Made by a program: the position numbers and the translations under genes. The notes under the pieces are model-generated. The model had not been told where the DNA came from, searched no databases, and saw nothing but the letters and a program-made list of their open reading frames with translations. Of a DNA stretch of 64,000 bases, positions 40,907 to 43,687 are shown one piece after another. Each line of letters starts with the position of its first letter. Position 1 is the first letter of the stretch. The DNA is from Escherichia phage UB. Where the stretch lies: sequence record MH383160, one strand, 5' to 3'.

Positions 40907-41278
40907 TTATGACATACGCTTATTATGAATGGAATTATGAATGGATTTTAAATAATTATATAATTTTATCAATCCACTACCAGTAGCTACAAACAGTAGT
41001 GCTGTTGGTATCATACATCCAAACATGGTTATTAATTCATGTATTTCCATACCATCACTATTTGGTCCCACATCAAATATAACAACCAAAACAACACCTA
41101 AAATGCTTAGACAATAATATCCCATAAAGACCATAAAAGTGATATATCCGGCACTTGATTTAATATTACATAACATATTATACACTGGATTAATACAGAA
41201 GAAGTATAATAACCATACCAGTGTTCCAGTACTGAACATAATGATTGAAATAATGGAAAATATCTCACGGTAACTCAT
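40907..41278 (-). CDS. small membrane protein (123 aa)
   Basis: Three or four hydrophobic segments; last gene of a block of eight membrane-protein genes. Confidence 0.55.
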   Translation of the reverse strand: MSYREIFSIISIIMFSTGTLVWLLYFFCINPVYNMLCNIKSSAGYITFMVFMGYYCLSILGVVLVVIFDVGPNSDGMEIHELITMFGCMIPTALLFVATGSGLIKLYNYLKSIHNSIHNKRMS

Positions 41279-41279
41279 A

Positions 41280-41642
41280 TTATTTCCTCATACCCAAACG
41301 TTGGTGGATTTCAGAGATCTTTATATACAATAGTACCACAAGGTGCAGTACTAAACAACATATAATTACGGCTAATACCAATGAACATATCATAAGACCG
41401 AAGGTTATTGTATTCAAAGATGATGTGAACAGTCCAATTATTAATACAATAAAACCAAAATTGAATACTGTACCCAACACAGTATATGCTGGACTATATC
41501 TCTTTTGGATTACATCATATATATTTGATAATGGTCGCTTATGGAAGTACTTCCCAATGCACACGAATGCATTCAGTGAGAAGATAAATGTATACGCCAT
41601 TACTAGTAATTGACCAACGAAAGATAATTCTATCCCGTTCAT
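41280..41642 (-). CDS. small membrane protein (about 120 aa)
   Basis: Start moved to MNGIELSF, directly after the stop of the upstream gene; hydrophobic. Confidence 0.5.
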   Translation of the reverse strand: MNGIELSFVGQLLVMAYTFIFSLNAFVCIGKYFHKRPLSNIYDVIQKRYSPAYTVLGTVFNFGFIVLIIGLFTSSLNTITFGLMICSLVLAVIICCLVLHLVVLLYIKISEIHQRLGMRK

Positions 41643-41643
41643 A

Positions 41644-42012
41644 CTAACCTCGTTTACGTTTTTTAATTGTACTGTGCATCTTTTCGAAATAGGGAACCAA
41701 AACATATTGAACAGTTTGCCAGATAACCATTAGATTATGCACTGCACCACCAAGGATACCAAACACTAGAACAATAATTGCCATAATAGGATCACCGTCT
41801 ACCATACCCCATTTAAAGATATGTAAAATCCAAGCAATGACTAGACAAAATAAACTAAGCCAATACGTAATGAAAAATCCGGCTTGTAATTCATAATCAT
41901 CAGCAATTTCATCGTATACCGTTTCTAAAAATGATACACAAAAGAATTTACCAATTATAACCACAGTACTAATAAACAGCATAGCAGTTAAGATAATAAG
42001 AGCAATTTCCAT
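41644..42012 (-). CDS. small membrane protein (122 aa)
   Basis: Hydrophobic segments; start abuts the upstream stop. Confidence 0.55.
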   Translation of the reverse strand: MEIALIILTAMLFISTVVIIGKFFCVSFLETVYDEIADDYELQAGFFITYWLSLFCLVIAWILHIFKWGMVDGDPIMAIIVLVFGILGGAVHNLMVIWQTVQYVLVPYFEKMHSTIKKRKRG

Positions 42013-42326
42013 TACATCCCTCGTTTACGCTTTTGATTGCGTCTAAATTCAGTTAGTCCACGGCTAATCGGCGGCATCAGACTACATAAAAAAGTAACAG
42101 TTGTTGGTAGTAACATCAAGTCAATCATTGCAGTGTTATCTGGTGGATCAAAAACCAAAAAATACACACAAGAAACACTAATAATGGTTGAACCGATAAA
42201 AGGAATACAAAATTCTTTTATCTGTTTTTCAACATAATCAAACATCTTGAGTACAAATAAAAATCCAACCCAACACATAATGAAATAGAATGAATACAAC
42301 GTGTAAATCAATGTTACGATATCCAT
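42012..42326 (-). CDS. small membrane protein (104 aa)
   Basis: Hydrophobic; C-terminal basic tail RRNQKRKRG. Confidence 0.55.
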   Translation of the reverse strand: MDIVTLIYTLYSFYFIMCWVGFLFVLKMFDYVEKQIKEFCIPFIGSTIISVSCVYFLVFDPPDNTAMIDLMLLPTTVTFLCSLMPPISRGLTEFRRNQKRKRGM

Positions 42327-42664
42327 TAGTACCTCGCATCAGGAACTTTAGCACGTAATTTATGAACGACTGGGAACAACAACAAACTTACATATGCAAT
42401 AGTTGAACCCCAATAGAATACTAATACAATTGGTTCACCATTAGAACGGAAACCTCTACTAATCATTGAGTAGTGAATAATAGGCATAATCATCGCCATA
42501 CCAAACCATGCGTGTAATTTTAATTGCAGCATGTTATCAGCGATGAATACTGAAATTGGTCGTTTAAAGAACCACATCAGAAAGTAGAATCCAGCACTAA
42601 TAATATAGTACAAAGTACTAACTTTCATATACCACGGCAGTAAATCAATAAAGTACTCCATCAT
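42326..42664 (-). CDS. small membrane protein (112 aa)
   Basis: Hydrophobic; C-terminal KLRAKVPDARY. Confidence 0.55.
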   Translation of the reverse strand: MMEYFIDLLPWYMKVSTLYYIISAGFYFLMWFFKRPISVFIADNMLQLKLHAWFGMAMIMPIIHYSMISRGFRSNGEPIVLVFYWGSTIAYVSLLLFPVVHKLRAKVPDARY

Positions 42665-43008
42665 TCCTCCGGTATCTTATTTCGAAGTTCAATCATAACA
42701 CAACAAATTTTAATGGTCAATATAAAAGTTAAACATATCATCCCAAGTGTGCCGTAAACTGCGGAAAAAGCTGGTAGTACCTTTCCTGTGAGTGTTGCTA
42801 CAATACATGCAATCAATGTTGATGCAAACAACGATTGATTAATGGCAGAATTCATAAAATCTTCACCATTACGTTTATAGAATTGTCGTTTAAAATACCA
42901 TCCTAGAAACATAACTACCCAAAATGATACATAAGTTGTTAGAATAATCCCTGCAAGTGAATGTGCAACTGAACTACTCCTTAAAAACTCAAGATAAGCT
43001 TCAAACAT
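42661..43008 (-). CDS. small membrane protein (115 aa)
   Basis: Hydrophobic; C-terminal ELRNKIPEE. Confidence 0.55.
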   Translation of the reverse strand: MFEAYLEFLRSSSVAHSLAGIILTTYVSFWVVMFLGWYFKRQFYKRNGEDFMNSAINQSLFASTLIACIVATLTGKVLPAFSAVYGTLGMICLTFILTIKICCVMIELRNKIPEE

Positions 43009-43358
43009 TAGAAGTCTCCGCGAATTTTATCTCTACCATGAATAATGAGATGGATTAAGTATACAACTAACCAAATGAACAACCCAAAGAATACAATATA
43101 TTGTGAGATTGAGTTCAAGTGAGGATTAGCACAATAAATTAAGTGTGCCATAAGACCAACAATTGCAAACAAACCTTGAACAAGTGTGTAAAGAACTAGT
43201 GATGAATTCCTCACTGGATACAGTTTAAAAACAATTTTCTTTTTAAAATACCATAGTACTACAACTAGTGCATGATAAAAGAAAAAACCAAAAAGATAAA
43301 TCAAAGTAATACTAATCATTGTATCTGATTTAAAAAATTCTAACATTAGAATCCCCAT
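43008..43358 (-). CDS. small membrane protein (116 aa), close paralog of 43346..43687
   Basis: ITLIYLFGFFFYHALVVVLWYFKKKIVFKLY matches the neighbouring protein. Confidence 0.6.
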   Translation of the reverse strand: MGILMLEFFKSDTMISITLIYLFGFFFYHALVVVLWYFKKKIVFKLYPVRNSSLVLYTLVQGLFAIVGLMAHLIYCANPHLNSISQYIVFFGLFIWLVVYLIHLIIHGRDKIRGDF

Positions 43359-43687
43359 TTAAAGTTATCACGAGCTTTAATAATAAAATACATAGTACAC
43401 ACCAATAACCAGACGATTAGTCCTGAAAACACAACATATTGTGTAATGTGTGGTGTATTATCAATTTGTAACATGTAAATCACATATGTCATCACACCAA
43501 ATAAAATAAACCCACCTTGTATAATGCTATATACAACTAAGAATACATTATCATACGAATACAATTTAAAAACAACTTTCCTTTTAAAATACCAAAGACT
43601 AATTACAATTGAATGATAAAACAAGAATACAAACATGTATATCAGTGTAATACCAAGCATTATATTAGATTCAAAAAACTCACGCAT
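43346..43687 (-). CDS. small membrane protein (113 aa), first gene of the block
   Basis: ITLIYMFVFLFYHSIVISLWYFKRKVVFKLY; GGAGACACCC SD upstream. Confidence 0.6.
   Translation of the reverse strand: MREFFESNIMLGITLIYMFVFLFYHSIVISLWYFKRKVVFKLYSYDNVFLVVYSIIQGGFILFGVMTYVIYMLQIDNTPHITQYVVFSGLIVWLLVCTMYFIIKARDNFKWGF

What the first reader, a model, noticed from the sequence alone, without database searches (positions are those of the whole stretch)
40907..43687. Operon of eight small polytopic membrane proteins, with three more paralogs at 50.6-51.6 kb
Eight 104-123-aa proteins in a row, each with two to four hydrophobic segments and mostly a basic C-terminal tail (R.N.PE-like: ELRNKIPEE, IKTLRDNLPER, IDIWRSNIPEK), coupled by overlapping stops and starts. 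The first two are close duplicates. A battery of small membrane proteins in a phage suggests superinfection exclusion, membrane depolarisation or anti-defence roles.
Basis: partly seen in the sequence, partly recalled or inferred. Interest (0 to 1): 0.6.

Follow-up and report, generated by a model that had tools for sequence, protein, structure and literature searches.

The report
Jumbo-phage array of small membrane proteins
A 121Q-type jumbo coliphage carries eleven related small three-helix inner-membrane proteins (eight in one tightly packed operon behind an ATPase gene, three behind a kinase gene); the family occurs only in RaK2-like jumbo phages and its function is unknown, probably acting at the cell envelope early in infection.

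Summary
The window is an Asteriusvirus (99% nt identity to phage 121Q/G17). Eight minus-strand genes (40907-43687) and three more (50569-51604) encode 104-123-aa proteins. Each has three hydrophobic helices, and the charge distribution predicts N-terminus out and C-terminus in. Profile-profile comparison against reversed-sequence and unrelated 3-TM controls links all eleven into one divergent family. They share cytoplasmic motifs: W-[YF]-F-K-[RK] after TM1, and [LF]-[RH]-x-[KN]-[IL]-P-[ED] or a K/R-rich tail after TM3.

The family matches nothing in Pfam, NCBIfam or PADLOC, and no solved structure. A profile search of 1.84 billion proteins found only 19 hits, all traced or recognisable as alleles of the same RaK2-like phage genes.

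An array of 4-11 members follows an NrdC.10-like P-loop ATPase gene in Asteriusvirus, Alcyoneusvirus, Mimasvirus, Eneladusvirus and Munch-like phages. Seven lineages keep their order within Asteriusvirus, and largely in Alcyoneusvirus and a metagenomic relative.

The operon starts at a sigma-70-like promoter/stem-loop cassette, and its products are absent from the phAPEC6 virion proteome. The arrays are hypervariable islands inside 92-95% identical flanks, yet under purifying selection (dN/dS 0.1-0.6).

Function is untested. I favour an early envelope role (superinfection exclusion or membrane protection, about 0.3). A hetero-oligomeric complex, host-membrane modulators and lysis control remain open.

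The parts
44552..44582 (-). Sigma-70-like early promoter (TTGACT-18 nt-TATAAT). Its -35 lies inside a stem-loop, GTTGACTTCGGTCAAC, and a T-run precedes it. This is one copy of a repeated terminator/promoter cassette and the likely start of the operon.
   Evidence: Promoter scan 11/12 match; sequence; the stem-loop motif occurs 10 times (9 loci, almost all on the minus strand) against 0.4 expected; cross-hits in relatives.
43753..44523 (-). First gene of the unit: a 256-aa P-loop/AAA-type NTPase, homolog of T4 NrdC.10, with Walker A GAPGVGKT and Walker B VLVLDD.
   Evidence: Weak Pfam AAA-family hits; only PF00004 passes its cut-off. About 40% identical to the T4/RB27 nrdC.10 product. 187 homologs, none with a known function. 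No solved relative by sequence.
43717..43745 (-). Intergenic promoter-like site (TTGACA-17 nt-TACTAT). Its spacer is an AGTACT...AGTACT hairpin. It may be an internal promoter or a regulatory site ahead of m8.
43346..43687 (-). m8, 113 aa, 3 TMDs. An extra copy of the m7 lineage, present only in some 121Q-type phages.
   Evidence: phrog_19454.
43008..43346 (-). m7, 112 aa (start corrected), 3 TMDs; lineage G7.
42661..43008 (-). m6, 115 aa, 3 TMDs, C-terminal ELRNKIPEE; lineage G6, the hub of the family's profile links.
   Evidence: AF2 model has four helices: a short N-terminal helix (2-10) plus three long ones (12-38, 48-74, 80-109), pLDDT 76.
42326..42661 (-). m5, 111 aa (start corrected), aromatic-rich 3 TMDs, C-terminal KLRAKVPDARY; lineage G5, the best conserved (K64-1 'membrane protein').
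42012..42326 (-). m4, 104 aa, 3 TMDs, tail RRNQKRKRGM; lineage G4.
41644..42012 (-). m3, 122 aa, 3 TMDs, tail TIKKRKRG; lineage G3.
41280..41642 (-). m2, 120 aa (the ORF extending to 41705 has no RBS), 3 TMDs; lineage G2.
40907..41278 (-). m1, 123 aa, 3 TMDs; lineage G1, last family member of the array.
40878..40901 (.). 10-bp-stem hairpin (ATCCAGTACT-TGAT-AGTACTGGAT) just after m1. The T-run is on the + strand only, so on the minus strand it is not a canonical intrinsic terminator. G17 annotates it as a terminator.
40203..40865 (-). 220-aa soluble protein of unknown function with its own RBS, directly after the hairpin. It may be the last gene of the same transcript.
   Evidence: ortholog in JNE01.
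51266..51604 (-). n3, 112 aa, 3 TMDs, C-terminal IWRSNIPEK.
50915..51256 (-). n2, 113 aa (ATG start with RBS), 3 TMDs, C-terminal TLRDNLPER.
50569..50913 (-). n1, 114 aa, 3 TMDs, C-terminal RLRKNMPNR.
51607..52649 (-). Upstream part of the second unit: promoter/stem-loop cassette (52620-52650), T7-type protein kinase gene (51950-52591) and a 93-aa soluble protein gene (51607-51888). These precede n3-n2-n1.
   Evidence: G17 'putative protein kinase'; the ortholog matches Phage_T7_kinase.

Best explanation
Shown with high confidence. The eleven genes encode one clade-specific family of roughly 105-125-aa proteins with three transmembrane helices. The short acidic N-terminus and loop 2 face the periplasm. 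The basic loop 1 and the basic C-tail face the cytoplasm. The genes are transcribed from host-type (sigma-70-like) promoters as parts of two units: [NrdC.10-like ATPase - m8..m1] and [T7-like kinase - 93 aa - n3 n2 n1]. Both are tightly coupled translationally. The proteins are not virion components.

Inferred, about 0.3. The proteins insert into the host inner membrane in the first minutes of infection. They act there as a set of parallel small membrane effectors. Their variable TM2, loop 2 and TM3 would engage different membrane targets. Their conserved cytoplasmic juxtamembrane motifs would give a common anchoring or partner function. The net effect would be to condition or seal the envelope of the infected cell, either by excluding superinfecting phage DNA or by blunting membrane-acting host defences, during the infection cycle (long latent periods are typical of jumbo phages; my own knowledge, not checked here). 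The cassette is exchanged between co-circulating phages by recombination at the repeated promoter/stem-loop elements.
For: Anatomy:
- Three hydrophobic segments in every member.
- K+R averages 3.0 in loop 1 and 4.5 in the C-tail, against 0.4 in the N-terminus and 0.5 in loop 2, across ten ortholog groups.
- Independent TMHMM/Phobius notes in the Muenster and GAP32 records say 3 TMDs, and for most of the Muenster proteins N-out/C-in.
- The AF2 model of m6 has three long helices.

One family:
- hhalign links of 52-99% probability against reversed and unrelated-TM controls.
- Bridging sequences from a divergent metagenomic phage match several groups each.

Early and non-structural:
- TTGACT-18-TATAAT cassette upstream of the ATPase gene.
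- No T4-type late motif TATAAATA nearby.
- The RpoD-like-promoter region of the related phage CBB is interpreted as early genes (PMC5259590).
- The second cluster sits behind a T7-type kinase gene.
- phAPEC6 gp011c-gp018c are absent from the 62-protein virion proteome.

Conflict-type evolution:
- Window versus A4 or JNE01: flanks are 92-95% nt identical, but the arrays cannot be aligned at nt level and are about 38% aa identical.
- The ATPase and array alleles reassort. A4 has a 98% identical ATPase with a 38% identical array. CRJP21, UE-S1 and ph0011 show the opposite pattern.
- There are lineage-specific duplications: m8 here, m4 in JNE01, m6 in Muenster.
- dN/dS is 0.10-0.60 against 0.05 for the ATPase.

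Context:
- The neighbourhood is rich in other envelope-directed early products. These include signal-peptide proteins and further small TM ORFs in the window, and a DUF1190 lipoprotein at the end of the array in A4, Muenster, GAP32 and BF.
Against: No experiment or homology ties the family to exclusion or anti-defence. It has no similarity to Imm, Sp, Sie, Cor or Llp, and none to PADLOC families.

Seven lineages keep 1:1 orthology and gene order within Asteriusvirus. The order is largely kept in Alcyoneusvirus and a metagenomic relative. The module is present in phages of Escherichia, Klebsiella, Salmonella, Cronobacter, Serratia and Xanthomonas. This looks more like a conserved, non-redundant apparatus than a fast-turnover arsenal.

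Gene-wide dN/dS stays below 1.

The periplasm-exposed parts are very short: about 10 aa at the N-terminus and 6-17 aa in loop 2.

Promoter timing is inferred from sequence only.
Confidence: 0.3

Rival explanations
1. The paralogs are subunits of one hetero-oligomeric inner-membrane assembly. It would work with, or be assembled by, the co-transcribed NrdC.10-like P-loop ATPase. It would serve the phage's own cycle, for example as a channel or transporter, or as a membrane anchor for replication or assembly in a jumbo phage that has no phage nucleus.
For: - The ATPase gene is followed by a 3-TMD array in every RaK2-like lineage examined: Asteriusvirus, Alcyoneusvirus, Mimasvirus, Eneladusvirus, Munch-like phages and two metagenomic contigs.
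- Seven lineages are kept in a fixed order with 1-nt stop/start overlaps, which suits stoichiometric co-expression.
- Cytoplasmic motifs are shared by all paralogs and could dock a common cytoplasmic partner.
- All members of an array diverge together between alleles.
Against: - ATPase alleles (58% identical) and array alleles (38% identical) recombine freely, so there is no allele-specific co-evolution.
- The number of members varies from 4 to 11.
- More distant ATPase homologs (T4/RB27 and two metagenomic phages) have no such array.
- Three members sit in a different operon, behind a kinase gene.
- Tight gene packing is usual in phage early operons.
Confidence: 0.22
2. They are host-takeover effectors. 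Each would bind and inhibit or redirect a different host inner-membrane protein (transporters, respiratory or division machinery, proteases). This is how bacterial small membrane proteins regulate larger ones. Depolarisation or toxicity would result when they are expressed alone.
For: - Early operons containing classical takeover functions (T7-type kinase) and many small ORFs.
- Small size and mostly membrane-embedded sequence.
- TM2 and TM3 are the most variable parts between orthologs (identity 0.33-0.37, against 0.50 for TM1 and loop 1).
- Paralogs are retained as distinct lineages, which fits distinct targets.
Against: - Host inner-membrane proteins are highly conserved among enterobacteria. 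The 38% identity between array alleles of phages that infect the same species is therefore hard to explain by host-target tracking.
- No similarity to any known regulator family.
Confidence: 0.18
3. They are lysis-timing proteins (holins, antiholins or pinholin-like). They would control the membrane-tethered (SAR-like) endolysin of RaK2-like phages, for which no holin has been identified.
For: - Class-I-holin-like architecture: about 105-125 aa, 3 TMDs, N-out/C-in, charged basic C-tail.
- RaK2 lacks T-holin and RI homologs (PMC3622015).
- The RaK2-like endolysin has an N-terminal TMD (PMC5259590).
Against: - The genes sit behind sigma-70-like early promoters with no late-promoter motif.
- They are not next to the endolysin (121Q gp532, against gp224-232 here).
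- There are 4-11 copies per genome.
- No match to any Pfam, NCBIfam or PHROG holin family.
- No convincing dual-start motif.
Confidence: 0.08
4. The ORFs are not functional genes: chance hydrophobic ORFs in AT-rich DNA, or decaying duplicates.
For: Some Salmonella-propagated relatives (SD-6_S16) show truncated or split copies and a truncated ATPase gene. Those assemblies may contain sequencing errors.
Against: - Each gene has its own Shine-Dalgarno sequence.
- Orthologs are intact across genera.
- dN/dS is 0.10-0.60 with dS up to 1.7.
- The motifs are conserved.
Confidence: 0.01

Closest known systems
Class I holins (lambda S105 type)
   Same: Size about 105-125 aa, three TMDs, N-out/C-in, highly charged basic cytoplasmic C-terminal tail, phage-encoded, predicted inner-membrane location.
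   Different: Early sigma-70-type promoter context rather than a late lysis cassette. Not adjacent to the endolysin or spanins. 4-11 paralogs instead of one gene. No dual-start motif. No sequence match to any curated holin family.
T4 superinfection-exclusion proteins Imm and Sp, and the accessory genes of T4-type hyperplastic regions flanked by PeSL promoter/stem-loop cassettes (PMC2839356, PMC4122927)
   Same: Small, early, envelope-located, non-virion accessory proteins. They lie in a variable region bounded by repeated terminator/early-promoter stem-loop cassettes, and show module swapping between close relatives. The neighbourhood shares T4 early genes (nrdC.10 homolog, denV).
   Different: No sequence similarity. 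Imm has two TMDs and Sp one (my own knowledge), and both are single-copy. Here an ordered multi-paralog array is conserved over several genera. No exclusion phenotype has been tested.
GenBank 'putative membrane protein' genes of RaK2-like phages (GAP32_522-527, CPT_Muenster_554-561, K64-1 'membrane protein') and PHROGs 19454, 19046, 27396, 33258, 26405, 27618, 19285
   Same: These are the orthologs and paralogs of the window's genes. Annotators already noted 3 TMDs, and for most of the Muenster proteins N-out/C-in.
   Different: They are filed as separate unknown-function families or as hypothetical proteins. Three things are not stated in the records or papers examined: that they form one family, that the link to the NrdC.10-like ATPase is conserved, and that the arrays are hypervariable and mosaic.
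Bacterial small inner-membrane regulator proteins (e.g. AcrZ, MgtS, KdpF; from my own knowledge)
   Same: Short, mostly membrane-embedded proteins whose plausible mode of action is helix-helix binding to larger membrane proteins.
   Different: Those have a single TMD, are unrelated in sequence and are host-encoded. The analogy is mechanistic only.

Membership tests
RaK2-like-phage 3-TMD family (defined here) | About 100-130 aa with three hydrophobic helices and a positive-inside pattern giving N-out/C-in | tested here: met
   All 11 window proteins and their orthologs. TMHMM/Phobius notes in the Muenster and GAP32 records agree on 3 TMDs for most members.
RaK2-like-phage 3-TMD family (defined here) | Detectable profile-level homology among members, above the composition-driven background | tested here: met
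   hhalign scores 30-88 connect all ten groups. Reversed controls score at most 20.7 and unrelated 3-TM ORFs at most 15.5. Leave-one-out HMMs built from single sequences clearly recover m1, m6, n1 and n2, marginally m2 and n3, and not m3, m4, m5 or m7/m8.
RaK2-like-phage 3-TMD family (defined here) | Cytoplasmic motifs: W-[YF]-F-K-[RK] after TM1, and [LF]-[RH]-x-[KN]-[IL]-P-[ED] or a K/R-rich tail after TM3 | tested here: met
   Alignment A2; sequences. m3, m4, m2 and m1 carry the K/R-rich variant.
RaK2-like-phage 3-TMD family (defined here) | Tandem array downstream of an NrdC.10-like P-loop ATPase gene | tested here: met
   Met for m1-m8 and in ten other phages or contigs. n1-n3 lie instead behind a kinase gene.
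Class I holins | Three TMDs, N-out/C-in, charged C-terminal tail | tested here: met
Class I holins | Late expression, in or near a lysis cassette with endolysin and spanins | tested here: not met
   Sigma-70-like promoter and no TATAAATA motif. No lysis gene among the neighbours. The endolysin homolog is 121Q gp532 (PMC5259590), far from gp224-232.
Class I holins | Sequence membership of a curated holin family | tested here: not met
   No Pfam, NCBIfam or PHROG holin hit for any member.
Class I holins | Hole formation or lysis triggering; complementation of a holin-null phage | not testable with these tools
   Needs an experiment.
T4 Imm / Sp type superinfection exclusion proteins | Sequence homology to Imm or Sp | tested here: not met
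   The PHROGs scan returns only unknown-function families of RaK2-like phages plus one generic 'membrane protein' phrog. The profile search of 1.84 billion proteins finds nothing outside the clade.
T4 Imm / Sp type superinfection exclusion proteins | Early expression and envelope location | tested here: inconclusive
   Predicted from the promoter and topology only.
T4 Imm / Sp type superinfection exclusion proteins | Blocks DNA entry of a superinfecting phage | not testable with these tools
   Needs an experiment.
DUF350 (YjfL-like membrane proteins) | Match to PF03994 above the gathering score, shared by family members | tested here: not met
   One member only (n1), E = 0.03, 14.7 bits against a cut-off of 26. 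1 of 18 members matched in the alignment scan.

The most novel reading that the evidence does not exclude
The ordered set of seven or more paralogous 3-TMD proteins, together with the NrdC.10-like ATPase, forms a phage-built hetero-oligomeric inner-membrane machine. In other genera a 1-TMD protein and a DUF1190 lipoprotein would belong to it too. The machine would be specific to RaK2-like jumbo phages. It might be a gated channel or a membrane platform needed to handle a 350-kb genome in a jumbo phage that makes no phage nucleus. It would not be a collection of independent accessory proteins.
Probability: 0.15. Interest if true: 0.8.

Novelty: new variant of a known kind. Interest (0 to 1): 0.42.

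Why it matters
RaK2-like jumbo phages (121Q, PBECO4, G17, RaK2, K64-1, GAP32, CBB, BF, Munch) are being developed for therapy, and more than 80% of their genes are unexplained.

This work turns about eleven 'hypothetical proteins' per genome into one defined family. The family has a clear membrane topology, conserved cytoplasmic motifs, a conserved operon partner and a distinctive evolutionary pattern: an ancient ordered set of paralogs, exchanged as hypervariable cassettes. That gives a compact and cheaply testable target, about 2.8 kb that could be cloned as one fragment, for questions that are open for these phages:
- how they protect a long infection from superinfection and membrane-acting defences;
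- what their missing holin is;
- whether they build their own membrane apparatus.

If the function is exclusion or anti-defence, the array will affect cocktail design and host range. If it is a complex, it would be a new kind of phage membrane machine.

Tried and rejected
- **Family libraries.** Pfam, NCBIfam, PADLOC and PHROGs scans gave only sub-threshold, non-recurrent Pfam hits (Wzy, SUR7, DUF443, DUF350, 7tm_3), one per member. I treat these as composition noise.
- **DUF350/YjfL lead.** It was suggested by the DUF1190 lipoprotein next to the array in relatives. I rejected it: 1 of 18 members matched, below the cut-off. 121Q-type phages also lack the lipoprotein in this window, and among Escherichia phage genomes only A4 carries it.
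- **ATPase.** No solved relative by sequence, no informative names among 187 homologs, and no functional literature on nrdC.10.
- **First alignment.** The MAFFT alignment of the 11 proteins alone (A1) was poor, and leave-one-out HMMs built from it failed for m3, m4, m5 and m7/m8. Deeper ortholog profiles were needed.
- **Long m2 ORF.** The 141-aa version was rejected because it has no RBS.
- **Other small TM ORFs.** Three further small 3-TM ORFs at 59963-61415 were tested as possible members and rejected.
- **Relatives' extra genes.** The 42-aa soluble protein, the Mue_10-type protein and the DUF1190 lipoprotein were searched for in the window and not found.
- **Truncated copies in Salmonella phage SD-6_S16.** I do not use them as evidence that the genes are dispensable, because the assembly shows many split genes.
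- **CMSTMSU locus.** Discarded as an unverified, frameshift-rich record.
- **Literature.** Searches found no paper that discusses this array.

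
Full report
**Identity of the window.** The region 40800-43800 is 99% identical at nucleotide level to Escherichia phages 121Q, vB_EcoM_G17 and Sharanji (genus Asteriusvirus, about 350-kb RaK2-like jumbo myoviruses). In every GenBank relative the genes in question are 'hypothetical protein'.

**Check of the observation.**
- The ORF listing shows eight consecutive minus-strand ORFs between 40907 and 43687, and three more between 50569 and 51604.
- I moved five starts, using Shine-Dalgarno positions and the annotation of relatives: m7 43008-43346, m5 42326-42661, m2 41280-41642, n2 50915-51256, n1 50569-50913.
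- With these starts, consecutive genes overlap by one base or are 1-3 bases apart (9 bases between n3 and n2), and each gene has its own GGAG/GAGG-type RBS.
- Kyte-Doolittle analysis gives three hydrophobic segments in every protein. m5 is aromatic-rich and falls below the cut-off, but its Muenster ortholog is annotated '3 TMDs' by TMHMM.
- Across ten ortholog alignments, mean K+R is 3.0 in loop 1 and 4.5 in the C-tail, against 0.4 in the N-terminus and 0.5 in loop 2. The positive-inside rule therefore gives N-out/C-in.
- This matches the independent TMHMM/Phobius notes in the Muenster and GAP32 records.
- An AF2 model of m6 (pLDDT 76) has a short N-terminal helix and three long helices.

**Are they one family?**
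- Pairwise BLASTP is weak except for m7/m8 (48% identity) and within n1-n3.
- Leave-one-out HMMs from the eleven sequences alone clearly recover only m1, m6, n1 and n2 (m2 and n3 marginally).
- I therefore collected orthologs from phages A4, JNE01, vB_Ec-M-J, EC.P1 and Muenster, and from the protein database. From these I built ten ortholog-group alignments.
- I compared the groups with hhalign, using each alignment reversed as a control that keeps composition and hydrophobic periodicity.
- Forward scores of 30-88 (probability 52-99%, mostly full-length and collinear) connect all groups:
  - G6 with G5, G4, G2, G7 and Gn1-3;
  - G3 with G2 and G1;
  - G1 with Gn3;
  - Gn1-3 among themselves.
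- No reversed comparison exceeds 20.7.
- Three other 3-TM ORFs of the same window (59963-60340, 60789-61115, 61173-61415) score at most 15.5 against every group, which makes a natural negative control.
- Proteins from a divergent metagenomic phage match several groups each and bridge them.
- A better alignment (A2) shows the shared features:
  - an acidic 'M-E-x-F' start;
  - TM1 ending in W-[YF]-F-K-[RK];
  - a loop with [VILT]-[FY]-x-x-[LIMF]-Y;
  - TM2, then a short N/D/P-rich loop, then TM3;
  - a C-terminal [LF]-[RH]-x-[KN]-[IL]-P-[ED], replaced in m1-m4 by a K/R-rich tail.

**Distribution.**
- A word-indexed search of 5.8 billion proteins with the family alignment returned 29 proteins.
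- An exhaustive hmmsearch of 1.84 billion representatives returned 19. Those I could trace sit in phage records or on 320-360-kb contigs, and the rest are recognisable alleles of the same genes.
- tblastn finds the array in 44 phage records, all Asteriusvirus or Alcyoneusvirus.
- No member matches Pfam, NCBIfam or PADLOC. In PHROGs, most members match one of seven separate 'unknown function' families, and m2 matches none.

**Operon context.**
- The gene just upstream (43753-44523) is a 256-aa P-loop/AAA-type NTPase. It is about 40% identical to T4/RB27 NrdC.10, for which I found no functional data.
- It is preceded by TTGACT-18-TATAAT, whose -35 lies in the stem-loop GTTGACTTCGGTCAAC, after a T-run.
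- That cassette recurs at nine loci in the window, almost always on the minus strand, against 0.4 matches expected.
- It resembles the PeSL terminator/early-promoter cassettes that mediate module shuffling in T4-type phages (PMC2839356, PMC4122927).
- The T4-type late motif TATAAATA is absent near the array. It is also depleted in the whole window, with 2 copies against 14.4 expected.
- In the related phage CBB, the region with RpoD-like promoters is interpreted as the early, host-takeover region (PMC5259590).
- n3-n2-n1 follow a T7-type protein kinase gene and a 93-aa gene, behind another copy of the cassette.
- The phAPEC6 orthologs gp011c-gp018c are absent from the 62-protein virion proteome, whereas the adjacent RCC1-like proteins gp003-gp010 are present.
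- Early timing is thus inferred from sequence, not measured.

**Conservation of the module.** An array of 3-TMD family members follows the ATPase gene in all of these:
- A4 and vB_Ec-M-J (7 members each) and JNE01 (8);
- Muenster, Alcyoneusvirus (8);
- a 324-kb metagenomic contig (10-11);
- Salmonella phage Munch and a related contig (4 each);
- GAP32 and XbC2, Mimasvirus (6 and 7);
- Serratia phage BF, Eneladusvirus (5).

Family HMMs still detect several members there (for example Munch_6093 against G3, 1.6e-13; GAP32_7639 against G6, 4.8e-8). Downstream of more distant ATPase homologs (T4-type RB27 and two other metagenomic phages) there is no such array.

Best-hit analysis shows collinear 1:1 orthology m7-m6-m5-m4-m3-m2-m1 in A4 and JNE01. 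The order is nearly the same in Muenster and the metagenomic phage. There are lineage-specific duplications: m8 here, m4 in JNE01, m6 in Muenster.

In A4, Muenster, GAP32 and BF the array ends with a DUF1190/YgiB-like lipoprotein. I did not find it in this window, and among Escherichia phage genomes only A4 has it. It also occurs in unrelated large phages, so it is a separate accessory gene.

**Evolutionary pattern.**
- Between the window and A4 or JNE01 the flanks are 92-95% nt identical. The arrays cannot be aligned at nt level except for part of m5, and are about 38% identical in protein.
- ATPase and array alleles reassort:

| Phage(s) | ATPase identity to window | Array identity to window |
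|---|---|---|
| A4 | 98% (aa) | 38% (aa) |
| CRJP21, UE-S1, ph0011 | 58% (aa) | 86-99% (nt) |

- Against vB_Ec-M-J, dS varies from 0.09 (m5) to 1.75 (m1), which indicates recombination inside the array. dN/dS is 0.10-0.60, against 0.05 for the ATPase.
- The genes are therefore constrained, fast-evolving, and exchanged as cassettes.
- Within orthologs, the N-terminus, TM1 and loop 1 are the most conserved parts (about 0.50 identity). TM2, loop 2 and TM3 are the least (0.33-0.39).

**Interpretation.**
- Firm: this is a clade-specific family of small N-out/C-in 3-TMD proteins, made from host-type promoters, not part of the virion, and kept as an ordered set of ancient paralogs.
- Inferred: the function.
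- I rank an envelope-conditioning role first (about 0.3): superinfection exclusion, or protection against membrane-acting defences. The reasons are the early, non-structural, inner-membrane profile, the hypervariable-cassette behaviour, and a neighbourhood full of other exported early proteins.
- The fixed order of seven lineages and the wide host range of the carrier phages argue instead for a conserved hetero-oligomeric apparatus working with the ATPase (about 0.22). Free reassortment of ATPase and array alleles, and a copy number of 4-11, weaken that view.
- Host-membrane modulators (about 0.18) and lysis control (about 0.08) remain possible. The lysis idea draws on the class-I-holin-like architecture, on the fact that RaK2 has no recognisable holin (PMC3622015), and on the membrane-tethered endolysin (PMC5259590). 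The promoter context, location and copy number speak against it.

**Comparison with known families and novelty.**
- The proteins resemble class I holins in topology, and resemble T4 Imm/Sp and PeSL-flanked hyperplastic-region genes in genomic behaviour.
- They fail every sequence-membership test I could run, so I do not file them under either.
- Annotators of GAP32 and Muenster had already noted '3 TMDs'.
- Three points do not appear in any record or paper I could find: that the proteins form a single family, that the ATPase-array module is conserved across the RaK2-like supergroup, and that the arrays show mosaic hypervariability.
- I rate the finding a new variant of a known kind (phage accessory small membrane proteins), of moderate interest. 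It is well defined and easy to test, but has no demonstrated function.

Noticed in passing
window 44567-44582, 46738-46753, 48020-48035, 52635-52650, 53720-53735, 59403-59418, 12523-12538 (minus strand); weaker copies at 47437 and 56161: Repeated cassette: T-run, stem-loop GTTGACTTCGGTCA[AG]C that contains the -35 hexamer, then 18 nt, then TATAAT. There are 10 matches against 0.4 expected. It looks like the PeSL terminator/early-promoter elements of T4-type phages. It coincides with the breakpoint where the ATPase and membrane-array alleles reassort between phages.
   Followed up: partly
window, 19 sites, e.g. 40882-40897, 43719-43740, 51398-51422, and many between 2.4 and 24 kb: Inverted repeats with AGTACT arms (AGTACT-N3-14-AGTACT) are strongly enriched, with 19 found against 0.12 expected. 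One lies just after m1, one in the spacer of the promoter-like site before m8, and one inside n3. Their function is unknown; they may be terminator stems or a regulatory or protein-binding site.
   Followed up: no
whole window: The T4-type late-promoter motif TATAAATA is depleted: 2 copies against 14.4 +/- 3.6 expected, both at 55-57 kb. This fits selection against late promoters in an early region.
   Followed up: no
window about 28000-40222, + strand (e.g. 39326-40222): A battery of RCC1-repeat ('DNA condensation protein') paralogs converges on the membrane array. In G17 most of these genes are followed by their own terminator. The phAPEC6 homologs gp003-gp010 are virion proteins, possibly the 'hairy' fibres.
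   Followed up: partly
window 43753-44523 versus relatives: The NrdC.10-like ATPase exists as two alleles only about 58% identical within Asteriusvirus. They are distributed independently of the array allele and of overall genome similarity. The SD-type Salmonella phages carry truncated copies, though those assemblies may be error-prone.
   Followed up: partly
window 44603-44929, 59610-59960, 60351-60710 (minus strand); perhaps 52661-53080: Small signal-peptide proteins of 108-139 aa show weak mutual similarity (BLASTP E = 1e-3 to 1.5e-5). At 59.6-61.4 kb they are interleaved with three further small multi-TM ORFs (59963-60340, 60789-61115, 61173-61415) that are not members of the family. This looks like a second set of envelope-directed early proteins.
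   Followed up: partly
window 44950-46413 (minus strand): A 487-aa protein with a CapR homology domain (Pfam PF21817, E = 2e-23). The syntenic gene between denV and the ATPase differs in size and annotation in relatives (HNH endonuclease, 'exonuclease ABC C subunit'), and orthology was not checked. This looks like a variable slot.
   Followed up: no
loci L003 4965-5516 (A4), L004 5294-5881 (Muenster), L014 9064-9687 (GAP32), L019 8771-9406 (BF): A DUF1190/YgiB-like lipoprotein gene closes the array in other genera and in A4. It was not found in this window. It also occurs in Ea35-70-type Erwinia jumbo phages and in T4-like Citrobacter phages (145 phage records). A conserved 42-44-aa soluble protein (MKPEQWIIDDMR...) sits inside the array in Muenster, Munch and two metagenomic contigs.
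   Followed up: partly
window 51950-52591 (minus strand): A T7 gp0.7-type protein kinase gene heads the operon that contains n3-n2-n1. The ORF as listed (to 52624) overlaps the promoter, so the real start is probably the ATG at 52591, as annotated in G17.
   Followed up: partly
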